From positions 1 to 64,000 of the IMG/VR virus record IMGVR_UViG_3300017991_000072: a stretch of DNA of 64,000 bases, one strand, 5' to 3'. The notes under the pieces are model-generated. The model saw only the letters and a list, made by a program, of their open reading frames with translations, had not been told where the DNA came from and did no database searches. This document shows positions 36,193 through 52,303 of this stretch, piece by piece. Each line of letters begins with the position of its first letter. The stretch's first letter is position 1. Made by a program: the position numbers and the translations under genes. The stretch is from a virus.

Positions 36193-36959
36193 CCGCTGTC
36201 CTCCGCTTCACCCCCTGGAACGGGGGTCTCTGGTTCGCTGGTTCCGTTCGTGTTCCCGCCTTCTTCGTCCTCCCCCTCTTCTTCCTTTGGACGTTCCTTC
36301 CCGTTCAAGAGACAGTCAAAGGAAGTCCACAGCTCCGCGTTGATCTTGATGAACGCCTGTTCCTCTTCCCTGGTGGTCTTCTCTTCCTCCACCAGCTCCG
36401 CCATCCTCCTGGACAGGATGGCGTTCTGGGCCGTCATGGTCTTGGCCGCGAAGGGAACACAGCCGGTCAGAGTCAGCGCCAAGAGAAGGAGGCCCGTGGC
36501 CTGGGCCGCGAAGGCTGACGCCTTGGCCAGCTTCCTCTTCAGCCTTCTCTTCACCTTCGCCTCCTCCTTCTTCTTCAGCTTCTTGACCATCTCCCTGGTC
36601 AAGTCTCTGTATTCGTCGGGGGTTGAAACGTAGACTTCCTCCGGCGGAGAGTGATATTCACACCAGCCGTCTGACCCGTATTCTCTACAGATGTGGGTTC
36701 GTCGCTGTCTATGAATTGAACAGCGTCCCCGTTCAAGATACTGGCAAGGGATTCTGACGTAGAGCGTCCAGGCTCCTTCTTCTGGTCTTCCTCCATCAGT
36801 CTCCGGAGTGAATCCAATGACTGTCTGTCCGTTTCTATACAGATACCAGAGGCCATATTCCCATTCCTCCAAGGTGGTGGGCTTGTCCAGCTCCATTCCG
36901 AAATACTCACAACACCGTCCGCCACATTCAGGGGGACATCCACGGGGGTTCTGGGCCAT
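36189..36959 (-). CDS. YkgJ/CxxCxxCC-type cysteine-cluster domain joined to a lipoprotein-like C-terminal part
   Basis: C..ECGGRCC, CQYL..RCSIH.R..ICR.Y; internal basic stretch plus LLLLALTLTGC lipobox. Confidence 0.65.
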   Translation of the reverse strand: MAQNPRGCPPECGGRCCEYFGMELDKPTTLEEWEYGLWYLYRNGQTVIGFTPETDGGRPEEGAWTLYVRIPCQYLERGRCSIHRQRRTHICREYGSDGWCEYHSPPEEVYVSTPDEYRDLTREMVKKLKKKEEAKVKRRLKRKLAKASAFAAQATGLLLLALTLTGCVPFAAKTMTAQNAILSRRMAELVEEEKTTREEEQAFIKINAELWTSFDCLLNGKERPKEEEGEDEEGGNTNGTSEPETPVPGGEAEDSG

Positions 36960-37013
36960 CGTCTCCTCCTTGTCTTCGTGTAGGGATAGGTCTGGGGAAG
37001 TCTGTCAGGATCC

Positions 37014-37043
37014 ATAATACCCCAGAACAGTCCGGACCATCAA
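37014..37043 (-). promoter_or_regulatory. Possible leftward sigma70 promoter
   Basis: TTGATG-N18-TATTAT on the minus strand at the divergence point. Confidence 0.35.
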
Positions 37044-37162
37044 GCCGGGTTTGTCAAGGGGGTCCGGTTTCGCGTGTGGGATCCGGGGCCATGCTCCCCT
37101 CCCCTACCGTCCCGGACACACTATACTGTAGGCCGCGCCCACGGACGCCCCCACATCTTGGG

Positions 37163-37284
37163 CCTGAAAAAAAGTTCTCCCTGGGTCATTTTTTCTTCAT
37201 TTTTCTCTTGACAAATGGACGGGGATGGTTTAGACTATAGCCATGATGAACGAAGAAACAAACCCCAAACCCCAGGAGGCCAAG
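37163..37284 (+). promoter_or_regulatory. Promoter module 1
   Basis: T-rich tract, TTGACA(37208)-17-TAGACT, ATG 37243, shared leader plus SD. Confidence 0.85.
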
Positions 37285-37536
37285 ATGATCACCCTGACAG
37301 ACGAACAGATAGCCGTAGTGGCGGAAGCGGACAGCGTTCATGACTACGCCTGGTCCTACATCACCATCAGGAAACAGACCGCGTCCTTCCAGCGGGCCTT
37401 CTACCTGGTGGAGACGATGGTTCACAAGGCTGAACACATGGAACTGGCGGAGGACCAGGTGTCAGGGCTCCAGGTGGCCACGGAATGGCTGAAACATGAG
37501 ATCAAGAACGCGGGCCACCCAGTAGCCGGACTGTAG
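37243..37536 (+). CDS. Hypothetical early protein (second start 37285)
   Basis: Promoter module, two in-frame starts. Confidence 0.7.
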   Translation: MMNEETNPKPQEAKMITLTDEQIAVVAEADSVHDYAWSYITIRKQTASFQRAFYLVETMVHKAEHMELAEDQVSGLQVATEWLKHEIKNAGHPVAGL

Positions 37537-37595
37537 AACCCCACGGGCTCCCTGGGGATCACCCAGGGAGCCCAGAACCCCAGAAGGAGGACCCC

Positions 37596-37787
37596 ATGAT
37601 ACGGACGAAGAAAGCCAAGAAGGTTCTGACGAAGAAGGAACAGCGCCACCTGACAGAGTCCAACATACACACCATGGCCGCCATGGAGCGCCAGGTGGCC
37701 TTCCTGAAGACCTACGAAGGGAACCCCACCATCTATCCCTGTTGGGAGTGTAGGGCCATAGCCCGGAAGCTTGGTCTGATGGACTGA
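37596..37787 (+). CDS. Hypothetical protein (CWEC motif)
   Basis: Hairpin, leader and AGGAGG SD. Confidence 0.7.
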   Translation: MIRTKKAKKVLTKKEQRHLTESNIHTMAAMERQVAFLKTYEGNPTIYPCWECRAIARKLGLMD

Positions 37788-37802
37788 CGCCCAGGACCCC
37801 CG

Positions 37803-37931
37803 TGACCCCTGGAGAAAAAAATTCTCCAGGGGTCATTTTTTCTTCATTTTTCTCTTGACTTTTCTGGCTCCCTGGGTTACAATAAGATCATGGAAACACA
37901 GAAAACACCCCAAACCCCCAAGGAGGAGACG
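37803..37931 (+). promoter_or_regulatory. Terminator-promoter module 2
   Basis: TGACCCCTGGAGAA/TTCTCCAGGGGTCA stem, T tract, TTGACT(37855)-17-TACAAT. Confidence 0.9.
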
Positions 37932-38324
37932 ATGAACTGGACCAAAGAAATCAGCCAAGAGGCCGCTGACAAGGTGAAGAAGGCTGGCTACGTGGACCCC
38001 ACAGCCAACCATCACCTGATCTCTGAAGCCGCCGCTGAAGCCCACACGATCCTGGGCCAGGAGATCTTCCTGGCGAAGGACCACGCCTGTGAAGTCAGCG
38101 TCCAGATCCCCAAGACGATCACGGATGAATTCCAGGCCACCTATGACGCCTACAAGCTGATCATGATGGAGATGGAAGCCATCCACCCGGCCAACAAACC
38201 AGAACTGACGCCCCAAGGCTATGACCGCCTGATGGCTGGCCTTCAGGAAAAGGCCGCGCCCCTTCGTTCCAAGCTTTACTCCCTGGAGATGGTCCTGGTG
38301 TCCATCGTCCAGGCCCAGATCTGA
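37890..38324 (+). CDS. Hypothetical early protein (second start 37932)
   Basis: Module 2. Confidence 0.7.
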   Translation: METQKTPQTPKEETMNWTKEISQEAADKVKKAGYVDPTANHHLISEAAAEAHTILGQEIFLAKDHACEVSVQIPKTITDEFQATYDAYKLIMMEMEAIHPANKPELTPQGYDRLMAGLQEKAAPLRSKLYSLEMVLVSIVQAQI

Positions 38325-38391
38325 CGAACCACGGGGGAGGGACCACGGGGGTCCCTCCCCTTCCCCCAACCCCACAGAGGAGGACAAGAAG

Positions 38392-38826
38392 ATGAAAGCC
38401 ACCAAGGACCAGATCAGAGGAATAGTAGGAGTCTTCCAGGACATCCTGGCCAAGGCGGAAGACAAGCTGAACACCAAGGAGATGGAGATGACAGAGCCCT
38501 ACGCCCACTACACTCCCGCCAAGGACGGAGGGACCTACAGGGCTGTCTGTCTGAATGACCTTCCCAGTGAAGCCTTCCAGGCCATGGACTCCGCCACGGA
38601 GGCCGTCTCCCGCGCCAAGATGGTCATCAGGGAAGGACTCCGCTTCTGGGAATTGGGTCAGATCTCTGATGAAGACCTGGTCTTCAAGGCCGCCCAGGCC
38701 AACGTCAACCTGGCCATGGAGGCCGTGGACAAGGCCCTGGAAGCCCCCAACCCCAGGCCCAAGACCAGGCCCAGGCCCATCAAGGCCAGGTTTGGGGAGA
38801 CCAGGCCAGCGTTCCCCGTGTCATAG
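38392..38826 (+). CDS. Hypothetical protein
   Basis: Hairpin, leader and SD. Confidence 0.7.
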   Translation: MKATKDQIRGIVGVFQDILAKAEDKLNTKEMEMTEPYAHYTPAKDGGTYRAVCLNDLPSEAFQAMDSATEAVSRAKMVIREGLRFWELGQISDEDLVFKAAQANVNLAMEAVDKALEAPNPRPKTRPRPIKARFGETRPAFPVS

Positions 38827-38835
38827 TTGACACAG

Positions 38836-38972
38836 CCCCCTGGTGAAAAAAAATTCGCCAGGGGGTCTTTTTTCTTCACTTTTCTCTTGACAAATGGGGG
38901 ACCATGGTTTATAATAGAGCCATGATGAAGGAAGGAAACAAACCCCAAACCCCCCAAAAGGAGGAGGACCTG
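38836..38972 (+). promoter_or_regulatory. Terminator-promoter module 3
   Basis: Stem with a G-U pair, TTGACA(38887)-17-TATAAT. Confidence 0.9.
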
Positions 38973-39383
38973 ATGATGACCCTTCAAGAAGCTACCGCTG
39001 GACTGATCGCTGGAACCGTGACCACGGATGACCTGAAGGTCCAAGGGTTCACGGCTGATGAACTGATCGCTGTGGTGGAGGCCATCCCGCCGTTCACAGG
39101 CTGTCCCTGTTGTTCGGATGAAGAGCCCGGCGCTGACTACGCGGACTTCAACATGTCCCTGTCCCGTCAGTTGGCCTTGGCTGACGTGAAGGTCTGTGGG
39201 TCCTGTGGAGCCATCCACGGAACCGTGGAGACCTGGGAAGCGGCCCACATGGTCTACCACCCCACGATGGTGGCCAAGGCCACGGGGGAGGAGATCTACG
39301 TGGACCTGACGATCCGTTCAGAGAATGAACGGTTCCATGGCTGGATGGACTCCGCCACCAAGAACCTGACCCAGGTTGGCTAG
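38922..39383 (+). CDS. Hypothetical Zn-binding protein (CPCC..CGSC; second start 38973)
   Basis: Module 3. Confidence 0.7.
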   Translation: MMKEGNKPQTPQKEEDLMMTLQEATAGLIAGTVTTDDLKVQGFTADELIAVVEAIPPFTGCPCCSDEEPGADYADFNMSLSRQLALADVKVCGSCGAIHGTVETWEAAHMVYHPTMVAKATGEEIYVDLTIRSENERFHGWMDSATKNLTQVG

Positions 39384-39457
39384 GACCTGGGAGGAAGCCA
39401 GGGAGGGACCCGTGGGTCCCTCCCTTCTTCGTTCAACCCCAAACCCAGGAGGAGACG

Positions 39458-39664
39458 ATGACCAGAGAAGAGGCCCAACGGATGGACCCAGAGGAGGCCA
39501 AGCTGAAGGCCAAGAGACTGGCCCAGGAAGCTGATGAACTGATCTCCAAGATGGAACTGGCCCACCCCCATTCCCAACGCTACACTGAACTGTGGAACGA
39601 ACTGACAGCCGTGGAACAGGAACAGCTAGTTCTGACCTGGGCTCCAGGCTACGGAGCCTGGTGA
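39458..39664 (+). CDS. Hypothetical protein
   Basis: Hairpin, leader and SD. Confidence 0.7.
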   Translation: MTREEAQRMDPEEAKLKAKRLAQEADELISKMELAHPHSQRYTELWNELTAVEQEQLVLTWAPGYGAW

Positions 39665-39722
39665 CGGAATAGAGCCCAGGCCCTACCCCTGGCGAACGAT
39701 CCAGGGGAGGGACCTGGGACGG

Positions 39723-39755
39723 GAGCCCCGGCGTTCAGACCGGGGCTCTTTTTTT
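39723..39755 (+). terminator. Intrinsic terminator
   Basis: GAGCCCCGG..CCGGGGCTC followed by T7. Confidence 0.8.
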
Positions 39756-39859
39756 GTCTGGATCCCCTGGCCTATGCTCCGCCTCCGCACCGTCCCGGAT
39801 GTGGTATTATCCCACCACAATGTCAAGAGAAGAGTGAAAAAAATTTCGTCTGGTGTCAA

Positions 39860-40001
39860 GATTTCTTCATTTTTCTCTTGACTTTTAGGATTGACCTGGG
39901 GTATAATAGGGCCACAGTCAAGATAGTTGACTGGTTGAATTCGGATCTTTGACAACTGAATAACGGACACAGAAACCCCCAAACCCCAAGGAGGGAAACC
40001 C
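39860..40001 (+). promoter_or_regulatory. Promoter module 4 with hairpin and rrn-type boxA in the leader
   Basis: TTGACT(39878)-18-TATAAT; hairpin 39915-39933; GATCTTTGACAACTGAATA at 39944-39962. Confidence 0.75.
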
Positions 40002-40241
40002 ATGGACGTGTTCTCTGTTCTGATCATCGTGGCTGTGGTTCTGACCAAGGTGGAGGCCCTGGAGGACGCCCTGGAGGCTTCTGAAGCGGACTTCTTCCCC
40101 GCCCAGGTCCTTGTGGTCCTGGTGGCCAGGGACGCCCTGGTGGGAGCCCTGGCGGGCTTCCTGGAGACGGGAACGGGGCTCCAGGATCTCCTGGACGCGG
40201 CCCTGGACCTGGATGACGCCCTGGTCAAGCTGGCGAAGTAG
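40002..40241 (+). CDS. Hypothetical Leu/Ala-rich protein
   Basis: Leader and GGAGG SD. Confidence 0.6.
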   Translation: MDVFSVLIIVAVVLTKVEALEDALEASEADFFPAQVLVVLVARDALVGALAGFLETGTGLQDLLDAALDLDDALVKLAK

Positions 40242-40246
40242 AAACA

Positions 40247-40380
40247 GACCCCCAGAGAAAAAAATTCTCTGGGGGTCATTTTTTCTTCATTTTTCCCTTG
40301 ACTTTTAGGAATGGGTGGTTTATAATAGGGTCATGATGAACGAAGGAAACAAACCCCAAACCCCCAAGAAGGAGGAAACC
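40247..40380 (+). promoter_or_regulatory. Terminator-promoter module 5
   Basis: GACCCCCAGAGAA/TTCTCTGGGGGTC; TTGACT(40298)-17-TATAAT. Confidence 0.9.
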
Positions 40381-40638
40381 ATGAACCAGATGACAACGAA
40401 GAAGAACGCGGGAAGAGACATGGTCCGGAAGGTGAAGGCGGAACAGATGTCCTTTGTGACGGAGGACCAGTTGGCCGTTATCGCGGAGGACGATGAAACC
40501 AGGATGACCCCCATCCTTGTCCGCTGTGGGAATGGACGCTTCACGTGTCCCGCCCAGAACGCGGCCTGGTTCATTGACATCATCACCAAGGAAGGGACGG
40601 ACTACGTCAGGGACGCCTCCATCTACTCCAGCTACTAG
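40333..40638 (+). CDS. Hypothetical early protein (second start 40381)
   Basis: Module 5. Confidence 0.7.
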   Translation: MMNEGNKPQTPKKEETMNQMTTKKNAGRDMVRKVKAEQMSFVTEDQLAVIAEDDETRMTPILVRCGNGRFTCPAQNAAWFIDIITKEGTDYVRDASIYSSY

Positions 40639-40652
40639 CCTGAACCCCTCCA

Positions 40653-40786
40653 GCCCCCCAGAGAAAAAAATTCTCTGGGGGGCCTTTTTTCTTCACTTTT
40701 CTCTTGACTTTCTTGACGGGGTGGGCTATAATAAGATCATGGAAACAGCGAACAAACCCCAAACCCCCAAACCCCAGGAGGACAGA
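40653..40786 (+). promoter_or_regulatory. Terminator-promoter module 6
   Basis: Same stem; TTGACT(40704)-17-TATAAT. Confidence 0.9.
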
Positions 40787-41191
40787 ATGTCAGTCACACA
40801 GTTCAGCGCGGAAGCCGTTTCCCAGATGGCCCACAGCATAGCCGCCCACGCCCGTCTTGATGAAGAGTTGGCGGAGATCATCCTGGAGTCCAAGGCGGCC
40901 CACCACGCTGGCCGCGTGGAGTTCAACCTGGACACGGATGACGTTTCCTTCAAGCTGGTCCACTACATGAGGCTGTCCAACCTGGTGGCCTACTCCATCC
41001 AATACCAGGAGCCCATGGTTCCCGTCTACACCATTGATGACTACTACGGGGAACCCCTGGTGGCCAAGGAGCTGGCGGAGGAAATTGACCACTGGATCTA
41101 CAACGTCCAGACCAACGCGGGGACCGCCCTGGTGGACCCGCTCTGGTTTGAACTGTTCCAGGCTGTCAGGGACCACCTGGCCGCGAAGTAG
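40739..41191 (+). CDS. Hypothetical early protein (second start 40787)
   Basis: Module 6. Confidence 0.7.
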   Translation: METANKPQTPKPQEDRMSVTQFSAEAVSQMAHSIAAHARLDEELAEIILESKAAHHAGRVEFNLDTDDVSFKLVHYMRLSNLVAYSIQYQEPMVPVYTIDDYYGEPLVAKELAEEIDHWIYNVQTNAGTALVDPLWFELFQAVRDHLAAK

Positions 41192-41204
41192 CCCACGGCC
41201 TCCA

Positions 41205-41332
41205 GACCCCCAGAGAAAAAAATTCTCTGGGGGTCATTTTTTCTTCATTTTTCTCTTGACTTTTCCCCGGGGATGGGTTACAATAAGATCATGGAAACAG
41301 GAAATCAACCCCAAACCCCGAAGGAGCCCAAG
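41205..41332 (+). promoter_or_regulatory. Terminator-promoter module 7
   Basis: Same stem; TTGACT(41256)-17-TACAAT. Confidence 0.9.
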
Positions 41333-41563
41333 ATGAAGATGAACCCCAACGGATCAGTCAGTTTCAGCTATGAAGAGATCGTGGCGGCGGCGGAAGAGAC
41401 CAAGAAGGCGGAAGCGGCCCGCGCCAACGCGCCCATGATGGCCGTCAGCTATGAAACCCCCGTAGGGACCTTCAAGGACTGGATCAAGGCGGCGGAGCGC
41501 GTGGAGGCTTTGGACATGGACCCCGTGGAGGTCATCAAGGTAGTCAGAACCCCTATCAGCTAA
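41291..41563 (+). CDS. Hypothetical early protein (second start 41333)
   Basis: Module 7. Confidence 0.7.
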   Translation: METGNQPQTPKEPKMKMNPNGSVSFSYEEIVAAAEETKKAEAARANAPMMAVSYETPVGTFKDWIKAAERVEALDMDPVEVIKVVRTPIS

Positions 41564-41630
41564 GGACAGGAACCACGCCCCCCCAGGATCCCCTGGGGGG
41601 CCAACCCCAACCCCAACGAAGGAGGACACG

Positions 41631-42029
41631 ATGAACAGACAAGCCAAGATCCCCCAGGAGATGGCCACCTACCTGGTGGACGCGGAGGACAAAGGCTGGA
41701 CCGGTGGCCAGGTGACCAGGTGGGTCCGGAACTGGATGAAGGACCTAGTCTGGGATGACAAGGACCCCCTGGGGGAGTCCGTGGCCGTGACCGTCCCCTG
41801 TTCCCTGGTGGACCAATACGGGAAGCTGATGGCCAAGGAGGACGAAGTCAGGACCTTGATGGAGACCAGAGCCCAGACCCTTGGCCTGGTGTCCTGTGAC
41901 CCCAGGTCTGAAGAGTACAGGGAGACCAGGAGGAAACACCTGAACCTAGTCAACGCCCTGGACATGGTCAGGGAGTCCAGGAGGAACCTGGAAGACGCCA
42001 TGACCTGGGTCCTGTTGGCCCAACTGTAG
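41631..42029 (+). CDS. Hypothetical protein
   Basis: Hairpin, leader and SD. Confidence 0.7.
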   Translation: MNRQAKIPQEMATYLVDAEDKGWTGGQVTRWVRNWMKDLVWDDKDPLGESVAVTVPCSLVDQYGKLMAKEDEVRTLMETRAQTLGLVSCDPRSEEYRETRRKHLNLVNALDMVRESRRNLEDAMTWVLLAQL

Positions 42030-42080
42030 ACGAACCCAACGCGGCCCCCTGGGGAGACCTGGGGGGCCAAGGAGGACCCC

Positions 42081-42386
42081 ATGGAAGGACAAGAACCCAA
42101 GATGGTCTCCGTCATGGTGGCGGAGAAGCTTCTACAGGATTATGACACGGCCTTGATGGGAGCCAGGAACATGGAGGGACGCCTATTGAACGCTGAACAG
42201 TGTCTTCTCCAGTCCGTCCTGGACTGTGACCAGGAAGCCTATGAAGAGGCCCTGGCCCAGAGGGACAGGGTCCAGGCTTCTCTGGACCTGGCCAAGAACC
42301 AGGCGGCGGCCCTGTCCGTCACGATAGCCAAGAAGGCCCTTCAAGACTGGATGACCCCAGGGACTCCAGTCTTCCCAGAGGATTGA
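42081..42386 (+). CDS. Hypothetical coiled-coil protein
   Basis: Hairpin and AAGGAGG SD. Confidence 0.7.
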   Translation: MEGQEPKMVSVMVAEKLLQDYDTALMGARNMEGRLLNAEQCLLQSVLDCDQEAYEEALAQRDRVQASLDLAKNQAAALSVTIAKKALQDWMTPGTPVFPED

Positions 42387-42387
42387 A

Positions 42388-42446
42388 CCACGGGTCCTCC
42401 CGTGGGTTTGGGGTGGGGCTCCCCCAGGGGTGGGGGAGCCCCTTTC
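42388..42446 (+). ncRNA. 3'-end anti-leader element plus terminator
   Basis: GTCCTCCCGTGGGTTTGGGGT (antisense to shared leader), then GGGGCTCCCCCA/TGGGGGAGCCCC stem and TTT. Confidence 0.55.
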
Positions 42447-42448
42447 TA

Positions 42449-42477
42449 TTGACTTCAGGCGGACCATGGTCTACACT
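42449..42477 (+). promoter_or_regulatory. sigma70 promoter for sRNA-1
   Basis: TTGACT-17-TACACT. Confidence 0.7.
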
Positions 42478-42483
42478 GAAGCC

Positions 42484-42565
42484 TGATCCACAGGGAACGG
42501 CGGGGCTTCCCCGTCCTCCTTGGGGTTTGGGGTAGGGGTCCAGGAGGGGTCCTGGACCCCTCTTT
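42484..42565 (+). ncRNA. Putative anti-leader sRNA-1
   Basis: Own promoter and terminator, no ORF; 42513-42533 is the exact reverse complement of ACCCCAAACCCCAAGGAGGAC. Confidence 0.65.
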
Positions 42566-42615
42566 ATATTGTGGTTCTTCTTGAACAGCTCCCCCACATG
42601 TGGTATGGTGGAACC

Positions 42616-42705
42616 TGCTAGGGCTGACTTGGTGTCCGTACCAGCGCCGGGTCACTCTGTTTCCTCCTTTGGGCTCCCCACGCGCCACGGGGAGCCCTTC
42701 CCTTC
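42616..42705 (+). ncRNA. Putative anti-SD sRNA-2
   Basis: TTGAAC(42581)-17-TATGGT promoter, 10-bp stem with three G-U pairs, GTTTCCTCCTTTGGG, terminator-like stem 42671-42697. Confidence 0.5.
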
Positions 42706-42707
42706 TA

Positions 42708-42723
42708 TGTTCCACGTGAAACC
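42708..42723. promoter_or_regulatory. parS-like site
   Basis: TGTTCCACGTGAAACC, 15/16 match to TGTTNCACGTGAAACA; intergenic. Confidence 0.55.
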
Positions 42724-42863
42724 CTGACTCCCTGGACCCCCGGGCCATGCTCCGGCCGGAGACCGTCCCGGATGTGGTATTCATCCACCACAACGTCAAG
42801 TCCCCACTTGACACGCCCCCCTTCCTCCTCCCCCCTGGTTATGCTCCCCCCAGGAAATCCGGG

Positions 42864-42911
42864 ACACCACATGTGGTATACCCACGGCCACGGACCCCCT
42901 ACATTTTGTGG
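42864..42911. promoter_or_regulatory. Tandem NrdR-box-like operator pair (32 bp apart)
   Basis: ACACCACATGTGGTAT and CCCCTACATTTTGTGG. Confidence 0.5.
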
Positions 42912-42919
42912 TGTCATAT

Positions 42920-43029
42920 AGCGAATTTTTCTACACTGAACCCTTGACAACAGGGGGTCCCCTGGTGTATATTAGGGGTAGATAGTGAGAATGAAACGGA
43001 CCCCAGAACCCCAAACCAAGGAGGACAGG
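42920..43029 (+). promoter_or_regulatory. Promoter module 8 (divergent copy)
   Basis: TTGACA(42944)-18-TATATT with TG; leader and SD. Confidence 0.75.
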
Positions 43030-43416
43030 ATGAACGCAAGAACCAACGATGACTTCAGGAAGGAAGGAACCAGGAAGGCCACGCTGGCGTTCCTTTCCGC
43101 CCTGACAGAACAGGAGGAAAGCGGAGAACCCCCGGCCATGTTCATGATCTGTCAACAGAAGAACCCCATCACGGGACGGAGGAATGAAGTCAGGTTGACG
43201 GCCGGTGTTCAGGCCATGGGAGCCATAGCGGCCGGTCACGTCCTGAAAGCCGTTCATGACTTTGACACCTTCACAGAGGATAATGACCCCTACGGGGAAC
43301 ATGACTTTGGGATCGTCAGGATGGAAGGGGAAACCCTGAACTGGAAGATTGATGACTACCAGGGCTATGATGGGATTGAATTGGTCCTGACCATCATGAC
43401 GGCCATGGAATACTAG
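42991..43416 (+). CDS. DUF3768-like protein (second start 43030)
   Basis: FDTFTEDNDPYGEHDFG, WKIDDY, VLTIMTAMEY signature. Confidence 0.8.
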   Translation: MKRTPEPQTKEDRMNARTNDDFRKEGTRKATLAFLSALTEQEESGEPPAMFMICQQKNPITGRRNEVRLTAGVQAMGAIAAGHVLKAVHDFDTFTEDNDPYGEHDFGIVRMEGETLNWKIDDYQGYDGIELVLTIMTAMEY

Positions 43417-43477
43417 AAACCCCAGGGAGCCCGGCCACGGCCGGGCTCCCACCACCCCCCAAACCAAGGAGGACAGA

Positions 43478-43741
43478 ATGGACCCCATCACGAACCCAAG
43501 ACCCACCACCCACCAATGGAAGGAAGGGGACAGGGTAGCCTTTTCTAAAGCCTTCCTCCGCAACACTGGCCAGTGTGACTATGAAACGGCCAGAGGCCGG
43601 GGGACCATCATCAGCGTGGCCCCCGTGGGGGACCTGACCATAGCGTCTATCAGATGGGACGGGATAGGTCTGGTCACTAACGTCAACGTGTTGAACCTGT
43701 CCCTGGTCACCAGGGACGGGGTAGTTCAGGACAGGGACTAG
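43478..43741 (+). CDS. Small SH3-like beta-barrel hypothetical protein
   Basis: GDRVAFSK.FLR..RGTI..IRWD..NV..NL. Confidence 0.65.
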   Translation: MDPITNPRPTTHQWKEGDRVAFSKAFLRNTGQCDYETARGRGTIISVAPVGDLTIASIRWDGIGLVTNVNVLNLSLVTRDGVVQDRD

Positions 43742-43801
43742 GAAGTCACCAGGGAGCCCTGGCGCTGGCCGGGGCTCCCACCCCCACCCAAGGAGGACAG
43801 G

Positions 43802-44041
43802 ATGGATCTGGAACGCTACAGGGTCTTCACAGCCCAGAAATTCATGGCCATGACCACGGGGGAACGCCAGAGGACAAAGCCCACCATGATGTTCAGCCGG
43901 GAATACCTGGCCCTGGCCCTGGCGCTGGCCTCTGAAAAGGTCATCATCTATGACGCCCAGGAAGACCTGGCGTGGCATTGTGGGGACCTGGTCACGAAGG
44001 CGGGATGGTACGATGGGAGCGGACAGCTAGTCAACCCGTAG
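43802..44041 (+). CDS. Hypothetical protein
   Basis: Hairpin, leader and SD. Confidence 0.65.
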   Translation: MDLERYRVFTAQKFMAMTTGERQRTKPTMMFSREYLALALALASEKVIIYDAQEDLAWHCGDLVTKAGWYDGSGQLVNP

Positions 44042-44267
44042 CCCTTCACCGGGGACCTGGTGAAGGGGTCCCCTTGGTTAGCCGGTCCCGGGGAAACCCG
44101 GGGCCGGTCTTTTTATGCTCCCCTCTGGCCCCGTCCCGGATTGTGGTATACTGTATCCACAATGTCAAGCCCTGGCTTGACGGGCCGTCTGCTAATCCAC
44201 GAAAAGCCGGGACGGCCCCACATGTGGTAGGCCCCGTCCACCACCCCTATATTTTGTGGTGTCCGTG

Positions 44268-44382
44268 GGCGTCTTTTTCTTCACTTTTCTCTTGACAAAA
44301 GGGGAACGCCGGGCGTATAATAGACCTGTAAGCTGAACAAAGGGTTCAGCGAAACCCCAACCCCCAACCAAGGGAGGACAGA
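44268..44382 (+). promoter_or_regulatory. Promoter module 9
   Basis: TTGACA(44292)-18-TATAAT; 5' hairpin GCTGAAC/GTTCAGC in place of an upstream ATG. Confidence 0.85.
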
Positions 44383-44580
44383 ATGTTGGTAGCGTGTTAC
44401 AAGACCAAGAAGGCTTTGAAGGAAGCCGTGGGACAGGCTCTTCTATATGAAGAGACTTCCTTGTTCGGGGAGGAATACCGCCCGGACGGGACGTTCCCAG
44501 TGGTAGGCCCCGGGGCCTATGAGCGTAAATGGTACGCGGAAGTTACCATGAAGGGAGGGAAGATCCACAAGGTCAAGTAG
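44383..44580 (+). CDS. Small phage hypothetical protein
   Basis: YKTKKALKEAVG..ETSLFGEEY..RKWYAEVTM pattern; leader and SD. Confidence 0.75.
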   Translation: MLVACYKTKKALKEAVGQALLYEETSLFGEEYRPDGTFPVVGPGAYERKWYAEVTMKGGKIHKVK

Positions 44581-44639
44581 GAACCTGAACCGGCCCGGGG
44601 CTCCGGCCCCGGGCCATTCTTCCAACCAAGGGAGGAACC

Positions 44640-44924
44640 ATGAACACACAAGAGACCCTAGAATTCACTGGACACCAGATGGCCCGGGCCAATACGGTCC
44701 TGTCAAGCCTTGACGGAGCTGGCCCTATGTCCGTCTGTAAAGCCGCCGCCGTGGCCCAGAAGGCCAACCAAATAGCGGAAAGCCTACCAGCCCTTGACAA
44801 GCTGGCCGGACACCTTGAAAGCCATCCTGATGACCCCGTGGCCCTTCTGGCCGTTCAAGCCTATACCGTGGCCGTGGGCGTCCACCTTGACCTTCTGGAA
44901 CTGACCCTTCAAATGACCCTATAG
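44640..44924 (+). CDS. Hypothetical protein
   Basis: Hairpin, leader and SD. Confidence 0.65.
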   Translation: MNTQETLEFTGHQMARANTVLSSLDGAGPMSVCKAAAVAQKANQIAESLPALDKLAGHLESHPDDPVALLAVQAYTVAVGVHLDLLELTLQMTL

Positions 44925-45185
44925 CCTCCCCCCAGGGGGGAGGAATTCCCCCTTGGTTGGCCCCGGTCCCTTCTGGGACCGGGGCCTTTCTTTTGTCAAC
45001 CCCAGACTTGACATAGTGGTGTGCAAATGTCATTTTCCGTCCCGGACGTTGACCGTTTCCCAGGGCTCCCAGAGCGGAGCGGAGCGGAGCGGGTCCCCGT
45101 AGGGGACCACGGCCCCCGTCCCATCCGGGACGGGGGCCGGGAACCGCATAGAGAGAAGAGACCGGAACCGGACCCGGCCGGACCC

Positions 45186-45311
45186 ACCTGAAAAAAAATT
45201 CGCGGGAGGACGTTTTTTCTTCACTTTTCCCTTGACTTTCGTTCTGGGATGGTTTAGAATAGGGGTGTAATGAGGAAACGAAACACACCCCAAACCCCGA
45301 AGGAGGCCAAG
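45186..45311 (+). promoter_or_regulatory. Promoter module 10
   Basis: TTGACT(45232)-17-TAGAAT. Confidence 0.85.
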
Positions 45312-46226
45312 ATGGCAACACAGAGCGGACAGGACAAGGTTTTCCAGATCTTCACAGACCAGATCATGGACATGTTGGAAGAGGGGACGGTCCCCTGGCG
45401 TCAACCTTGGAAGGGCGGGAAGATCCCCATGTCCTTCCAGACCAAGCGGCCCTACCGTGGGATGAACGTCTGGTTCCTGAACAGCGTGGCCATTCATCGC
45501 GGCTACACATCCAACTGGTGGGTGTCCCTGAAGTCAGTGAAGAAGGCCAAGGGCTGGATCAAGGACGATGAATTCAAGAAGTCAGTGACCGTGATCTTCT
45601 GTAGGCCCAAGCGGTACGAAGTGGAGACGGACGAAGTGGACGAACAGGGCCAGCCGGTCAAGGAAGAGCGGATGTCCTTCATCTACTTCTACCACACGGT
45701 ATGGAACATGGACCAGGTGGAAGGGATGACGGCCCCTGACGCGGACCAGGACGCGGAGGAGCGGACCCCCAACCAGATCCTTGAAGAGGCCCAGGCCATC
45801 ATTGACGGCTACCAGAACGGCCCAGAGATCAGCCACGGCGGGACCAGGGCTTTCTATCGTCCCTCTGATGACTCCGTGACGGTCCCAGAGATGGAACTGT
45901 TCCAGGACAGCGAGAACTACTACCACGTGATGTATCATGAACTGGCACACTCCACGGGTCACGGTTCCCGCCTTGGGCGGAAGGGAGTCATGGACCTGAC
46001 CATGTTTGGATCCCATGACTACTCCAAGGAGGAACTGGTGGCGGAGATGGGAGCGGGCTTCCTGGGAGCCCTGGTGGGACTGACCCCCAGGACCATTGAC
46101 AACACGGCGGCCTACATCCAGTCCTGGCTGAAGGCCCTGAACGATGACAAGCGGCTCCTGGTCTACGCGGCCAGCAAAGGCCAGGCGGCGGCGGAACACA
46201 TCCTGGGCGTGACCTGGGAAGGATAA
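45270..46226 (+). CDS. ardC: ArdC-like ssDNA-binding anti-restriction protein (DUF1738 plus zincin-like domain; second start 45312)
   Basis: PWRQPW, RPYRGMN, VWN.DQ.EG, AFYRPS.D, HELAHSTGH..RL.R, YSKEELVAE, AAYIQSWL. Confidence 0.9.
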   Translation: MRKRNTPQTPKEAKMATQSGQDKVFQIFTDQIMDMLEEGTVPWRQPWKGGKIPMSFQTKRPYRGMNVWFLNSVAIHRGYTSNWWVSLKSVKKAKGWIKDDEFKKSVTVIFCRPKRYEVETDEVDEQGQPVKEERMSFIYFYHTVWNMDQVEGMTAPDADQDAEERTPNQILEEAQAIIDGYQNGPEISHGGTRAFYRPSDDSVTVPEMELFQDSENYYHVMYHELAHSTGHGSRLGRKGVMDLTMFGSHDYSKEELVAEMGAGFLGALVGLTPRTIDNTAAYIQSWLKALNDDKRLLVYAASKGQAAAEHILGVTWEG

Positions 46227-46301
46227 CAGGGAGGAAGCCTGGGAGTCCCACAGTGGGGCTCCCAGGCCCTTCAAACCCCAAACCAGAAGGAGGACAGAAC
46301 G

Positions 46302-46775
46302 ATGGAACAGACAGACTACACAGCGGACAGAGAACTGGCGGTCAAGGCCCTGGAACAGATGGACTACATCCACCTGGAACGCGGACAGGTGGCGGCCCTG
46401 GTGGACACCTACCGGGTCATCACCACCCATAACCCTGGCGCGGTCCCAGGCCATGAAGAGGAACTAGGGACCCTGGCCGGGCTCCTGGTCATGAGCGTAG
46501 GAACTGGCGTCAAGCTGATCCCAGAGGACGGACCCCCCAACGTCCGGGTGGGAGTCCCCAGGCTCCTGGTGGAAGCCATCAAGGACATCAACATCCAGAG
46601 GGACAAACTGGCGGCCTACAAGGAGGAACACAAGGACGGAGGAGGACCAATAGACCCCAAGTCCATGGAAGTCCTGGAGGCCCAACAGGCTACCCACAGG
46701 GCGGCCCTTTCCACGGCCCTGGTCAACGTCATCATCACGGACTTGGCTGGAATGGCGGACGCTGGAAGCTACTAG
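46302..46775 (+). CDS. Hypothetical protein
   Basis: Hairpin, leader and SD; terminator at about 46793-46832. Confidence 0.7.
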   Translation: MEQTDYTADRELAVKALEQMDYIHLERGQVAALVDTYRVITTHNPGAVPGHEEELGTLAGLLVMSVGTGVKLIPEDGPPNVRVGVPRLLVEAIKDINIQRDKLAAYKEEHKDGGGPIDPKSMEVLEAQQATHRAALSTALVNVIITDLAGMADAGSY

Positions 46776-46916
46776 ACTGACCCTCCCCCACAGAGCCCCG
46801 GCCCGGTTCGTCCGGTCCGGGGCTCTTCTTTTATGCGGGCCGGGACTAGCGTCCCGGATATACGCCATTTCCCACGGTCCCCATCACGTGGTAGACTATG
46901 GATGAAAGGAGATCCC

Positions 46917-47219
46917 ATGACCTACACTCTATCCCAGGCGGGGACGGCCTACGCTGAAGCGGCGGCCACGTGGGCCAGGGCTATGGAAGCGGAGGAGGCG
47001 GTCAGACAAGAAGGCCCTGACCTGAAGGTTGACAAGTTCCTCCACGTGACGGCCTTGTCCACAGTGATCCGCCAGGCTATGAACGGCCTGTCCCAGGCTG
47101 TCATGATCTTCATCTGGCGAAACAACGAAGGGAACCACGCGGTCCTGGAAGCGGCCATGGCGGAGACTATCCGCGTGACGGCGGACGCCAACGCCCTTAT
47201 GGACTCCTACGGATACTGA
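46917..47219 (+). CDS. Hypothetical Ala-rich protein
   Basis: AAGGAG SD; TGG-TAGACT extended -10 upstream. Confidence 0.6.
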   Translation: MTYTLSQAGTAYAEAAATWARAMEAEEAVRQEGPDLKVDKFLHVTALSTVIRQAMNGLSQAVMIFIWRNNEGNHAVLEAAMAETIRVTADANALMDSYGY

Positions 47220-47365
47220 ACCCCCTGGACCCCTGGGCCACCAATGACTGTTTATTAACCCTGAACTGTCATTCTGTTGTTACCGGTTATCAGGCCCAGG
47301 GGTCTTTTCTTTCCCCCACGCGGGCGCGGGCGGGCGCGTGGGCGCGTATACGCGGGCGCGGGGCT

Positions 47366-47490
47366 CCTGAAAAAAGTTCTCCCAGGGCGTTTTTTTCTTC
47401 ACTTTTCTCTTGACATCCGTGGACGGGTCCCCTATAATAAGGACCATGGACACAGCGACAAACCCCAAACCCCAAACCACGGAGGACAAC
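47366..47490 (+). promoter_or_regulatory. Promoter module 11
   Basis: TTGACA(47410)-17-TATAAT. Confidence 0.85.
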
Positions 47491-47829
47491 ATGTCCACAC
47501 TGAACGCCCTTGGAACCCTTCTCTACAGCCTCCCCGTTCCCACCCGTCACGCCTACACCATCACCATCTGTGACCAATACCAGGACACAGAGCCTACCAC
47601 CTGTGTGGTCAACGCGGAGACCCAGGGCGCGGCCCTGGCCAAGGCTGTGGAGGTCTACTCCACAGAATTCTACGGCCACGCGGTCACCCTGGACCCCCAG
47701 GTCCTTCATGACGCTGTCACCGTCATCTTCCATCCTGACGGCGGCGTGAACCCCGTGGGGTTCTTCGCCAGTGACCCCCAACCCATCCGCCTTCAGCGCC
47801 TTGGGGACCCTGTCCCCTTGTCCGCGTAA
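47446..47829 (+). CDS. Hypothetical protein (second start 47491)
   Basis: Module 11. Confidence 0.65.
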   Translation: MDTATNPKPQTTEDNMSTLNALGTLLYSLPVPTRHAYTITICDQYQDTEPTTCVVNAETQGAALAKAVEVYSTEFYGHAVTLDPQVLHDAVTVIFHPDGGVNPVGFFASDPQPIRLQRLGDPVPLSA

Positions 47830-47895
47830 GCGGACCCCCTGGGGGGTGGGAATTCTCCCACCCCCCGGCTGGAACCCCAAACCCAGGAGGACATC

Positions 47896-48096
47896 ATGGA
47901 CCAAGTCAAGAAGAGCCTGACCAAGAAAGCCCTGAAGGCCAAGCTGAACCAAGCCAGGGAAGAGCTGACCTACCTGGAGGACTTCCTGGCGGGACCCTGT
48001 TGTGTGTCCCACGCGGAGATTGACGCGGCCGGGGATGACACCTACAGGCTTCAGAAGGAGATCAGGGAGCTGAAGGAGGCCCTGGCGGCCCTGTGA
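47896..48096 (+). CDS. Small coiled-coil protein
   Basis: Hairpin, leader and SD. Confidence 0.7.
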   Translation: MDQVKKSLTKKALKAKLNQAREELTYLEDFLAGPCCVSHAEIDAAGDDTYRLQKEIRELKEALAAL

Positions 48097-48111
48097 TCTT
48101 TTTTTCGTCAG

Positions 48112-48210
48112 GCGGCGTTTTTTCTTCACTTTTCTCTTGACAAAGCCTGAAGGATGGTTTACACTTACACCATGGACACAGACCGCAAACCCCAGACCCA
48201 GGAGGACACG
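48112..48210 (+). promoter_or_regulatory. Promoter module 12
   Basis: TTGACA(48137)-17-TACACT. Confidence 0.85.
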
Positions 48211-48819
48211 ATGAACGAAGATCACATCACCCAAGAGGCCACGCGGCGGCTGGAAGCCCTTCACCCCTACCTGACCAGGGAGATCAAGCTGGCTCCCCCG
48301 TCTCCCCCAGAGAAGACGGCTGAAGAGTACAGGGAAGAAGCGGCCCGTCACGCGGCGGAGCGCCTACGGTCCCAACAGGAGTCAGACACGGACGGGTTCC
48401 TGTCCCAGTGGGCCAGCGGCCTGAACAGTTCCCTGGCGTCCAGGCGGGCGGAGATCAAGGAGAACGGCGGGAACTGGGAGTTCTGGGGACTCTACCGTAG
48501 GGCGGACGGGAAGCGGATCAGGGCCAAGATGATAGACGGGAAGTATGGCCTCTGTTGGGCCATCTGTGACGAACATTCCACCTTCACGGGTCAGTTCTTC
48601 TCCGTGGACGGGACGGGCTCCAAGAGGACCAAGCTGTGGAAGGCTGGCCTGGAAGAGCGGCGTGAAATGGCCCCGGCTTGGGCCAAGATGGACGGGAAGG
48701 GAACGGGCCTGTCAGGTCAGGCTTGGGTGTCCACCTACAGGATAGACGGCGGCTACCCCTTGGACGCGGTCAACCTGGACTCCCCCGTGGAGGACCCTGA
48801 CCCCACGCCGGACCCATAG
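48172..48819 (+). CDS. Phage hypothetical protein (SDTDGFLSQWASG motif; second start 48211)
   Basis: Module 12. Confidence 0.7.
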   Translation: MDTDRKPQTQEDTMNEDHITQEATRRLEALHPYLTREIKLAPPSPPEKTAEEYREEAARHAAERLRSQQESDTDGFLSQWASGLNSSLASRRAEIKENGGNWEFWGLYRRADGKRIRAKMIDGKYGLCWAICDEHSTFTGQFFSVDGTGSKRTKLWKAGLEERREMAPAWAKMDGKGTGLSGQAWVSTYRIDGGYPLDAVNLDSPVEDPDPTPDP

Positions 48820-48879
48820 CCTTCCCCCAAGAAGGCCAAGAGGACGGAAGCGGAACTACGGCGGGACCTTTCCGCCATC

Positions 48880-49011
48880 ATGAGGGGTCACAGAGTATGT
48901 CAGGACTGTGGCCAGGTCAGGCCCACGGCTGAAGTCCACGTCCCTGGACGTGGGATGGCTAGGGTCTGTCAGGACTGCTATGACGTGGCTGTCTATGAAC
49001 TGACGGCCTAA
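48880..49011 (+). CDS. Possible 43-aa zinc-ribbon peptide
   Basis: MRGHRVCQDC..VCQDCY; weak SD. Confidence 0.35.
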   Translation: MRGHRVCQDCGQVRPTAEVHVPGRGMARVCQDCYDVAVYELTA

Positions 49012-49041
49012 CCCCAACCCCCAGGACAGGAGGAAGGAACG

Positions 49042-51262: not shown

Positions 51263-51470
51263 AGGAGAACTGGAAGAGCGCGGGATTGAAATTGATCTGT
51301 CAGGTCCCCAGGGGAACGGGTTTGTCCTGATTGGGTACGCCAGGAAATGGGCCAAACAGTTGGGGAAGGACGCGGACGCCATCACCAAGGACATGGAGTC
51401 AGGAGACTATGACCACCTGGTTGAAGTCCTGGAACGGGAGTTTGGGGACTACGTCACCATCTACAGGTAG
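51246..51470 (+). CDS. Small phage protein (IDLSGPQGNGF motif)
   Basis: Motif recognised from small phage proteins; SD present. Confidence 0.7.
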   Translation: MAIKDRGELEERGIEIDLSGPQGNGFVLIGYARKWAKQLGKDADAITKDMESGDYDHLVEVLEREFGDYVTIYR

Positions 51471-51479
51471 GAGCCCAAG

Positions 51480-52110: not shown

Positions 52111-52125
52111 AGAGTCTACATGAAG

Positions 52126-52187
52126 CCCACAGGTCCTCCTGTGGGGTTTGGGGTGGGGAGCCCGGAGGGGTCCGGGCTCCCCTTTTC
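52126..52187 (+). ncRNA. 3'-end anti-leader element plus terminator
   Basis: CCCACAGG-TCCT-CCTGTGGG hairpin, GTTTGGGGT, then GGGGAGCCCGGA/TCCGGGCTCCCC stem and TTTT. Confidence 0.55.
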
Positions 52188-52303
52188 TATGGGGGCGGGG
52201 GTCTTGACGCTGGTGGCGTGAAGTGGATAGGCTGTCAACATTGGCGGGAAGACTGGGCCTGGCGGGGACATACTACCTGTGGGGGGTAGTGAAGGAGGAC
52301 AGG

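What the first reader, a model, noticed from the sequence alone, without database searches (positions are those of the whole stretch)
42449..42565. Phage sRNA perfectly antisense to the ribosome-binding leader shared by about 22 early genes: candidate one-RNA off-switch for a whole regulon
Seen: most plus-strand genes from 37.2 to 49.0 kb are preceded by a variant of ACCCCAAACCCC-AAGGAGGAC-N3-6-ATG (e.g. near 37261, 37906, 38941, 39435, 39974, 40351, 40755, 41307, 41604, 43000, 43452, 44352, 45287, 46273, 47460, 47873, 48187, 49010). At 42449 there is a promoter (TTGACT-17-TACACT), then about 80 nt with no ORF containing GTCCTCCTTGGGGTTTGGGGT (42513-42533), the exact reverse complement of that consensus. 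An intrinsic terminator follows immediately (AGGGGTCCAGGA/TCCTGGACCCCT, then CTTT). Established: bacterial sRNAs repress translation by occluding the SD. Inference: the C-rich leader is an address tag that distinguishes phage early mRNAs from host and late mRNAs (late genes have the SD without the C-tracts), so one RNA could time or dampen all cassette genes, including newly acquired ones. I do not know of a described phage regulon built this way.
Basis: partly seen in the sequence, partly recalled or inferred. Interest (0 to 1): 0.92.

Follow-up and report, generated by a model that had tools for sequence, protein, structure and literature searches.

The report
Phage small RNA mirroring early-gene leaders
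An uncultured 100-kb phage and two related phages keep a promoter-to-terminator unit for an RNA of about 80 bases, plus two sister copies at operon ends, whose conserved core mirrors the ribosome-binding leader of about 20 early genes, so it probably turns early protein synthesis down, though no transcript has been seen.

Summary
About 20 plus-strand genes between 37.2 and 49.0 kb carry a C-tract leader followed by GGAGGAC and ATG. The reverse complement occurs on the plus strand exactly three times in the 99,864-bp genome.

- **The three copies:** 42394-42414 and 52133-52154 lie in 3'UTRs. 42513-42533 has its own sigma-70-type promoter. Each abuts an intrinsic terminator.
- **Conservation:** Two related metagenomic phages (ArdC-like protein 70% and 66% identical) keep the leaders and the anti-leader copies. 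Against the more distant one, seed, terminator and promoter hexamers stay 83-95% identical, while the promoter spacer, the RNA's 5' part and the rest of the island fall to 33-49%.
- **Predicted pairing:** The RNA's 16 best targets among 125 SD-led starts are all early genes.

- The match is perfect only to the consensus. Real leaders pair in two blocks.
- There are three, perhaps four, such RNAs, not one.
- The free RNA is predicted to hide most of its seed in a conserved 5' hairpin.
- Its promoter is of the early class, which suggests feedback damping or a timer rather than a late switch.

No expression data could be obtained. Earlier notes of this scan report similar anti-leader RNAs in at least eight unrelated phages (unchecked).

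The parts
42449..42477 (+). Promoter P2 of the stand-alone anti-leader RNA (-35 at 42449-42454, 17-nt spacer, -10 at 42472-42477)
   Evidence: Consensus scan. In the most distant relative, L046, the hexamers keep 5/6 and 5/6 while the spacer keeps 8/17. The spacer resembles that of the early promoter at 38887.
42484..42566 (+). Predicted RNA of about 80 nt (sRNA2): long 5' hairpin, seed, terminator. The start is inferred from the -10 box.
   Evidence: Folds at -53.7 kcal/mol, z = -4.0. Indels of 8 and 2 nt in L046 rule out a conserved ORF.
42513..42533 (+). Seed 2: anti-SD followed by two G-tracts, the exact reverse complement of the leader consensus
   Evidence: 0 mismatches. 20/21 identical in L046 and 21/21 in L045.
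42534..42570 (+). Intrinsic terminator of sRNA2: 12-bp stem, GGGG loop, T-rich tail
   Evidence: 26/28 identical in L046, with one A-U to U-A double change at the stem base.
42388..42448 (+). Anti-leader copy 1 in the 3'UTR of gene 42081-42386: hairpin 42388-42405 with the anti-SD in its loop and 3' arm, G-tract linker to 42414, terminator 42415-42442
   Evidence: Conserved in L044, L045 and L046, with the loop growing from 4 to 6 nt and compensatory changes in the terminator stem.
52126..52190 (+). Anti-leader copy 3 in the 3'UTR of gene 51682-52110: hairpin 52126-52145, G-tract linker to 52154, terminator 52155-52182
   Evidence: The counterpart in L046 at 16896-16966 keeps the anti-SD, G-tracts and GGGG loop, but with an inserted hairpin and a different stem.
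42581..42705 (+). Possible fourth unit: promoter 42581-42609, 5' hairpin, anti-SD-like stretch 42659-42673, GC stem 42673-42700
   Evidence: The anti-SD stretch is kept in L044 and L045 but not in L046 (6/17), so support is weaker.
37263..49033 (+). Target set: about 20 gene starts with a C-tract leader plus GGAGGAC plus ATG (gene starts from 37285 to 49042)
   Evidence: Net predicted binding to sRNA2 averages -14.3 kcal/mol (n=24), against -3.2 for the other 101 SD-led starts.

Best explanation
The unit at 42449-42570 is a small non-coding RNA gene. Host RNA polymerase transcribes it from an early-class sigma-70 promoter, and it ends at an intrinsic terminator.

Its conserved core (anti-SD plus two G-tracts) pairs with the C-tract leader and Shine-Dalgarno site of about 20 early phage messages. 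This blocks ribosome binding and probably speeds their decay. Two sister modules at the 3' ends of early operons (42388-42448 and 52126-52190) carry the same core. They may act as parts of their mRNAs or as stable 3' fragments.

The anti-SD half is held in a hairpin in all copies. Pairing therefore probably starts at the G-tracts on the unstructured C-tract 'address' and then spreads over the SD. That would spare host and late messages, which have the SD only. All these RNAs are made together with their targets, so the likely effect is delayed negative feedback that limits or ends early protein synthesis.

Shown: the sequence anatomy, the selective conservation and the predicted energetics. 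Inferred: transcription, pairing in vivo, repression and timing.
For: 1. Exact complement of the leader consensus, with none expected by chance. There are only three reverse copies in 100 kb, each directly upstream of a plus-strand terminator.
2. Relatives L045 and L046 (neighbouring ArdC-like protein 70% and 66% identical) keep many leaders and both tandem copies. L046 also keeps copy 3.
3. Conservation has the shape of an RNA gene. Window against L046: seed 20/21, terminator 26/28, -35 5/6, -10 5/6. By contrast: promoter spacer 8/17, RNA 5' part 17/35, remaining island 79/240.
4. Stems change while pairing is kept. The inner stem of the 5' hairpin has a different sequence in L045 and L046 yet still pairs, and six different terminator stems all close the same loop.
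5. Net cofold energy, after paying for opening both RNAs, ranks early genes first. The top 16 of 125 starts are all early genes, at -14 to -22 kcal/mol. Late genes with a full SD but no C-tract reach only -7.5 to -9.1.
6. No minus-strand ORF follows the reverse copies in a conserved way.
7. The downstream gene at 43030 has its own strong promoter, so P2 is not needed as its leader.
Against: - No transcript evidence.
- The free RNA is predicted to pair almost the whole seed with a leader-like 5' arm, in all three lineages. An open toehold is therefore not evident for this copy, and a chaperone, processing or slow kinetics would be needed.
- Leaders and anti-leaders are too similar among the three lineages to test co-variation of tag and mirror.
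- Only three lineages are available, and only one classical double-sided change was counted in the four-sequence alignment.
- The host is unknown, so Hfq or RNase III dependence cannot be judged.
- The RNA is made from an early-class promoter, which fits damping better than a switch.
Confidence: 0.55

Rival explanations
1. The seed-plus-terminator module is a cis-acting termination device. Its four G-tracts (two in the seed, one opening the stem, one as the loop) could fold into an RNA G-quadruplex before the 3' arm of the terminator is made. Leader RNA pairing with the seed would then decide between quadruplex (read-through) and hairpin (stop).
For: Only 5 quadruplex-type motifs lie on the + strand of the 100-kb genome, and 3 of them are these modules. 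The A-GGGG-U stem apex is invariant in all 8 distinct modules although the stems differ. The seed always abuts the stem.
Against: The G-tracts are largely forced by complementarity to the C-tract leader and by GC-rich stems. It does not explain the conserved anti-SD. The 12-13-bp GC hairpins are very stable. No quadruplex prediction or assay was run.
Confidence: 0.1
2. The copies act only in cis. Like the icaR 3'UTR, each pairs with leaders on its own transcript, and the stand-alone unit is a duplicated remnant or an attenuator-type short transcript such as lambda 6S RNA.
For: Copies 1 and 3 lie 2-25 nt after stop codons of operons that contain leader-bearing genes. The tandem terminators form a barrier between two parts of the early block.
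Against: The stand-alone unit has its own conserved promoter and no mRNA attached. The next gene has its own 11/12 promoter. Nothing prevents 3'UTR copies from also acting in trans.
Confidence: 0.12
3. The RNA is real, but its main targets are not the phage's own early genes. It could act on host messages with C-rich leaders, or on early messages of co-infecting related phages (exclusion or immunity, as with P4 CI RNA or P1/P7 c4 RNA).
For: The same C-tract plus SD motif precedes single genes in many bacterial phyla. The sigma-70 promoter would work without phage factors. RNA immunity factors with repeated targets are known (PMC4825925 text, PMC12197685).
Against: About 20 targets sit in the phage itself. 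No integrase or repressor was seen among the larger genes scanned (not exhaustive). The host genome is unknown, so this is untestable here.
Confidence: 0.08
4. The reverse copies are neutral relics of inverted cassette junctions (terminator plus leader), or leaders of minus-strand genes.
For: The reverse complement of copy 1 resembles a normal junction: leader, SD and GTG, and it shares a motif with the hairpin at 39400. Cassettes with repeated promoters and terminators invite recombination (PMC2839356).
Against: Seeds stay 93-100% identical where neighbouring non-coding DNA falls to 33-49%. All three copies persist in the relatives whose contigs cover them. The terminators work only on the + strand (T-tails). 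The minus-strand reading frames are 4-16 codons long and not conserved.
Confidence: 0.05

Closest known systems
c4 antisense RNA of phages P1/P7 and CI RNA of satellite phage P4
   Same: Small phage RNAs that pair with repeated complementary sites in the phage's own early transcripts. c4 covers a ribosome-binding site, with the pairing bases presented in structured RNA (review PMC12197685). CI has two targets (PMC4825925 text).
   Different: Those RNAs are processed from the leader of the operon they control, have 1-2 targets and serve lysogenic immunity. CI acts by transcription termination. Here the RNA has its own promoter, about 20 targets and an apparently virulent genome. No Rfam family reached its curated threshold in 36-54 kb, and no C4-type model appeared among the seven sub-threshold matches.
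icaR mRNA 3'UTR anti-SD motif, Staphylococcus aureus (PMC3868564)
   Same: A C-rich anti-SD stretch in a 3'UTR pairs with an SD region, blocks initiation and creates an RNase III substrate. This is the nearest match for copies 1 and 3.
   Different: icaR acts on its own message only. Here the same core also sits in a stand-alone RNA gene, and it matches a leader shared by many genes.
Start-associated sequences (SAS) of cluster K mycobacteriophages (PMC3203893)
   Same: A conserved motif that includes the SD lies just upstream of many non-structural genes, in one orientation. Four of the genomes have a single copy on the opposite strand not tied to a gene. The authors left open whether an RNA or protein binds it.
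   Different: The sequences are unrelated. No RNA gene, promoter or terminator was described around the reverse SAS copy. Here the reverse copies are embedded in terminator modules.
T4 RegB endoribonuclease and RegA translational repressor (PMC3014915)
   Same: One early phage product inactivates many early messages at their ribosome-binding sites and eases the shift away from early expression. RegB targets GGAG plus flanking context, which spares late messages.
   Different: These are proteins, not RNA, and recognition is not by base pairing.
PeSL promoter-terminator cassettes of T4-type phages (PMC2839356, PMC4122927)
   Same: Repeated regulatory modules (stem-loop terminator plus early promoter) flank small early ORFs of unknown function, as in the 37-49 kb block.
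   Different: PeSLs are discussed as recombination substrates. No antisense copy or shared translated leader is part of their definition.

Membership tests
Trans-encoded base-pairing small RNA (promoter, seed, intrinsic terminator) | Own promoter | tested here: met
   Site scoring 9/12 at 42449-42477. The hexamers are conserved and the spacer is not.
Trans-encoded base-pairing small RNA (promoter, seed, intrinsic terminator) | Intrinsic terminator with U-tail at the 3' end | tested here: met
   12-bp stem at 42534-42561 plus a T-rich tail. The tail is short, with three U before an A or C.
Trans-encoded base-pairing small RNA (promoter, seed, intrinsic terminator) | No conserved ORF | tested here: met
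   Frame-breaking indels in L046 and L044.
Trans-encoded base-pairing small RNA (promoter, seed, intrinsic terminator) | Conserved seed complementary to targets encoded elsewhere | tested here: met
Trans-encoded base-pairing small RNA (promoter, seed, intrinsic terminator) | Seed accessible (single-stranded) | tested here: not met
   Predicted unpaired probability is near 0 over most of the seed in all four sRNA2 sequences. This is a prediction only.
Trans-encoded base-pairing small RNA (promoter, seed, intrinsic terminator) | Transcript detected and target regulation shown | not testable with these tools
No host is known.
C4 / CI phage antisense RNA family (Rfam) | Match to the covariance model | tested here: not met
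   A permissive cmscan (E up to 1) of 36000-54000 listed seven sub-threshold matches to unrelated families and nothing of this family.
C4 / CI phage antisense RNA family (Rfam) | Processed from the leader of the operon it controls | tested here: not met
   The stand-alone unit has its own promoter and terminator. Copies 1 and 3 lie in 3'UTRs, not in leaders.
3'UTR anti-SD element (icaR type) | Anti-SD motif in the 3'UTR of an mRNA whose own SD it can pair with | tested here: inconclusive
   Met in position for copies 1 and 3. Not applicable to the unit under review. Cis pairing was not examined separately.
Start-associated sequences (cluster K mycobacteriophages) | The 13-bp SAS consensus | tested here: not met
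   The leader here is a different sequence. The resemblance is in arrangement only.

The most novel reading that the evidence does not exclude
This would be an address-tagged translational regulon. An unstructured C-tract in front of the SD marks about 20 early phage messages. Three hairpin-guarded anti-leader RNAs open only on messages that carry the tag (toehold-type strand invasion). The phage would thereby shut down its own early proteins without touching host or late messages. The invariant G-tracts may add a quadruplex-or-hairpin choice at the terminators. Together with the unchecked notes of similar RNAs in at least eight unrelated phages, this would be a widespread, undescribed class of phage gene control.
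Probability: 0.35. Interest if true: 0.88.

Novelty: new variant of a known kind. Interest (0 to 1): 0.72.

Why it matters
If confirmed, one short RNA motif would control a whole block of about 20 host-takeover and anti-defence genes, including an ArdC-like anti-restriction gene, through a private tag on their messages. Any newly captured gene that lands behind the tag would come under the same control.

It would give an RNA counterpart to T4 RegA and RegB. It would offer a function for the unexplained start-associated sequences of mycobacteriophages and their lone reverse copies. It would also provide natural parts (tag plus guarded anti-tag) for orthogonal translational control. The case can be tested with simple reporters even though the host is unknown.

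Tried and rejected
- **IMG/VR scans without relatives:** two leader patterns gave only chance matches. The 433-aa early protein, the ArdC alignment and the DUF3768 alignment found no relatives.
- **Terminase relatives:** four contigs turned up, two at 88% identity, one at 99% and a 4-kb fragment, but none covers the early block. The leader pattern gave no match in three of them and one match at the end of the 99% contig.
- **Phage GenBank collection:** no DNA match.
- **Genome contigs:** no ArdC relatives. The module pattern gave 37 unrelated hits, several of them visibly ordinary bacterial gene starts read backwards, so there is no host clue.
- **Rfam:** nothing at or near threshold.
- **Minus-strand leader reading:** rejected. 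The frames are short and not conserved, and the terminators are one-directional.
- **Leader as a conserved peptide:** rejected. The C-tract is read in two different frames in the in-frame upstream extensions.
- **Pair counts on the eight terminator modules:** not run. The plain alignment puts the 3' arms of two modules out of register, so the stems were compared by eye.

Full report
**Context.** The window is the first 64 kb of a 99,864-bp IMG/VR phage record with 57% G+C.
- Structural genes (major head, portal, large terminase, tape measure) lie on the minus strand at 0.5-37 kb.
- Replication genes (family-A DNA polymerase, DnaB-type helicase, UvsX-like recombinase, a DNA methyltransferase, a queuine-transglycosylase-like protein) lie on the minus strand beyond 53 kb.
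- Between them, at 37.2-52.7 kb, is the only plus-strand block. It holds some 25 mostly small genes of unknown function, plus an ArdC-like anti-restriction protein (45312-46223) and a DUF3768 protein (43030-43413).
- This block is dense in sigma-70-type promoters, 24 against 3.7 expected, and in intrinsic terminators. It is best read as an early, host-polymerase-transcribed block. That reading is an inference.

**The observation.**
- A scan of the whole genome finds 20-21 gene starts preceded by two or three C-tracts separated by A's, then GGAGGAC, then ATG. All are on the plus strand between 37263 and 49033.
- The reverse complement of this leader occurs on the plus strand exactly three times: 42394-42414, 42513-42533 and 52133-52154.
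- The 11-mer that ends the seed occurs on the plus strand only at these three places in the window.
- It is preceded by TTGACT-17-TACACT (42449-42477) and followed at once by a 12-bp terminator stem and a T-rich tail (42534-42570).
- The claim must be trimmed in one respect. Only one gene (start 40002) offers 18 unbroken complementary bases. Most leaders pair in two blocks, a 10-14-nt C-tract block and a 7-12-nt SD block, with a small internal loop between them.

**Surroundings.** The unit lies in a 640-bp gene-free island (42387-43029) packed with signals.
- Directly after the stop codon of gene 42081-42386 comes copy 1. It is a 7-bp hairpin with the anti-SD in its loop and 3' arm, the G-tract linker and a terminator (42388-42442).
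- Six bases later the promoter of the reviewed unit begins.
- After its terminator comes another promoter (42581-42609) with an RNA of about 90 nt. That RNA carries an anti-SD-like stretch (42659-42673) before a GC stem.
- The DUF3768 gene then has its own 11/12 promoter, so the small units are not needed as its leader.
- Copy 3 lies 10 kb away behind gene 51682-52110 and has the same plan: an 8-bp hairpin of different sequence, the same 4-nt loop, the same linker and a terminator.

**Relatives.**
- DNA-pattern and protein scans of IMG/VR gave no contig that covers an early block.
- A scan of JGI metagenome contigs with an alignment of the ArdC-like protein and its two nearest database relatives gave three loci. 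L044 is a near-identical strain, L045 has 70% protein identity and L046 has 66%.
- All three carry many leaders of the same type on the plus strand. All three carry both tandem reverse copies at the same place, upstream of the DUF3768 gene. L046, whose contig reaches far enough, also has copy 3.

**Pattern of conservation (window against L046).**

| Element | Identical positions |
|---|---|
| Seed | 20/21 |
| Terminator | 26/28 |
| -35 hexamer | 5/6 |
| -10 hexamer | 5/6 |
| Promoter spacer | 8/17 |
| 5' part of the RNA | 17/35 (with 8-nt and 2-nt deletions) |
| Rest of the island | 79/240 |

This is the footprint expected of a promoter, a functional RNA core and a terminator. It is not the footprint of a protein-coding gene or of neutral DNA. 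Structure is kept through sequence change:
- The inner stem of the 5' hairpin has a different sequence in L045 and L046 yet still pairs.
- The eight distinct seed-terminator modules of the three lineages have six different 12-13-bp stems, all closing the same loop.
- With only four sequences, the formal count is one double-sided change. The covariation evidence is therefore suggestive, not statistical.

**Energetics.** I folded the predicted RNA (42484-42565) together with the -45 to +15 region of 125 SD-led starts from the whole genome. I then subtracted the folding energies of the two partners alone.
- The 16 best targets are all early plus-strand genes, at -14 to -22 kcal/mol.
- The early block averages -14.3 kcal/mol (n=24), against -3.2 for the rest (n=101).
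- Late genes with a full SD but no C-tract reach only -7.5 to -9.1 kcal/mol, so the C-tract supplies the selectivity.

**A complication.** In the minimum-energy, centroid and consensus folds, the free RNA pairs almost its whole seed with a leader-like 5' arm. This holds in all three lineages, and the last G-tract pairs weakly with the tail.
- Copies 1 and 3 are more open. The anti-SD is shown in a 4-6-nt loop and the G-tract linker is partly free.
- The simple picture of an exposed seed is therefore not met for the reviewed copy.
- The recurrent guarding of the anti-SD in all copies suggests a purpose. An unguarded anti-SD would bind every strong SD in the cell. A guarded one could open only on messages that offer the C-tract as a landing site. 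This is my inference and is untested.

**Timing.** The promoter resembles the early promoters of the block, including the spacer motif before the -10 box. Copies 1 and 3 are made as parts of early operons. The anti-leader RNAs should therefore accumulate along with their targets. That fits delayed negative feedback or damping better than a separately timed switch.

**Rivals considered.**
- **Termination device.** All modules carry four G-tracts and an invariant apex. Three of the five quadruplex-type motifs on the plus strand of the genome are these modules. A quadruplex-against-hairpin choice at the terminator is conceivable, but it leaves the conserved anti-SD unexplained.
- **Purely cis action, as in the icaR 3'UTR.** This fits copies 1 and 3 by position but not the stand-alone unit.
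- **Host or competitor targets.** These cannot be examined without a host. The same C-tract plus SD arrangement precedes single genes in many bacterial phyla.
- **Neutral relic or minus-strand leader.** Selective conservation, one-directional terminators and the absence of a conserved minus-strand frame argue against both.

**Comparison with known systems.**
- Nearest in mechanism are the phage antisense RNAs c4 (P1/P7), which covers a ribosome-binding site, and CI (P4), which has two repeated targets (PMC12197685; PMC4825925). Both are processed from the controlled operon's leader and serve immunity. No Rfam model of that family or any other reaches threshold here.
- The 3'UTR copies resemble the icaR anti-SD element (PMC3868564).
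- In arrangement, the closest published case is the start-associated sequence of cluster K mycobacteriophages. It is shared by many non-structural genes, has a single unexplained reverse copy in several genomes, and its binding partner was explicitly left open (PMC3203893).
- In function, T4 RegB and RegA do the same job with proteins (PMC3014915).
- The repeated promoter-terminator cassettes recall PeSLs (PMC2839356, PMC4122927).
- I found no paper that describes a phage regulon controlled by an RNA antisense to a shared leader. This is absence in a limited library, not proof.

**Earlier notes of this scan.** Other readers and one follow-up agent described the same three or four modules in this genome. 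Follow-up reports exist for similar anti-leader RNAs in at least eight unrelated phages. These are unchecked AI notes. I used them as leads (the icaR and SAS papers, and the in-frame upstream ATGs) and tested what I could.

**Verdict.** A conserved, non-coding, plus-strand RNA element that mirrors the early-gene leader is very likely real (about 0.8). That it represses early-gene translation in trans is the best explanation (about 0.55) but rests on sequence, conservation and predicted energies only.

Noticed in passing
window 37243-48213 (e.g. 37243, 37890, 38922, 40333, 40739, 42991, 45270, 47446, 48172): In 10 promoter-proximal cassettes an ATG lies 6-9 nt (17 nt in one) after the -10 box, at or near the predicted transcript start. 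It is always in frame with the SD-led ATG 39-51 nt downstream. The C-tract is read in two different frames (NPKPQ or KPQTPK), so the constraint is on nucleotides. This suggests dual leaderless and SD-led initiation.
   Followed up: partly
window, minus strand at 37115, 39798, 42771, 44139, 53818 (weaker at 45045, 46857): A repeated minus-strand module: -35/-10-like boxes, then CCGGGACGG, about 10 nt, then GAGCATRG. One copy heads the minus-strand structural operon, and the others point antisense into the early block. The core is conserved in L045 and L046, but the promoter part is not.
   Followed up: partly
window 42404-42430, 42522-42549, 52143-52170; L045 and L046 counterparts: Every anti-leader module keeps four G-tracts and an invariant A-GGGG-U terminator apex, so it could form an RNA G-quadruplex. 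Only five such motifs lie on the plus strand of the whole genome.
   Followed up: partly
window 37802-37836, 38835-38866, 40247-40277, 40653-40683, 41205-41235: Five near-identical terminators with an A7/T loop, each followed by an early promoter. These repeated regulatory cassettes resemble the PeSLs of T4-type phages.
   Followed up: no
window 38336-38362 and 39400-39425: Two terminator-like hairpins are built from an SD-like 5' arm and an anti-SD-like 3' arm. Each is followed directly by a C-tract leader.
   Followed up: no
window 42581-42705: A second tandem small unit (promoter with TG-extended -10, 5' hairpin, anti-SD-like stretch, GC stem). Its anti-SD stretch is kept in L044 and L045 but lost in L046 (6/17).
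   Followed up: partly
window 42903-42914 and 44251-44262; 42597, 42870, 44221: Two short motifs recur in the non-coding islands and are invariant in relatives where aligned: ATTTTGTGGTGT twice, and CATGTGGTA three times. Their role is unknown.
   Followed up: no
L047:8909-10081 (genome 72909-74081, minus strand): A queuine tRNA-ribosyltransferase-like protein (PHROG 887, E 2e-32) lies next to an ATPase and a methyltransferase. This may indicate 7-deazaguanine-type DNA modification.
   Followed up: no
loci L049-L085 (genome-contig scan): In several of the 37 hits to the module pattern, read on the opposite strand, a C-tract plus SD precedes the ATG of a single bacterial gene, in different phyla. 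C-rich leaders before strong SDs are therefore not unique to this phage.
   Followed up: partly
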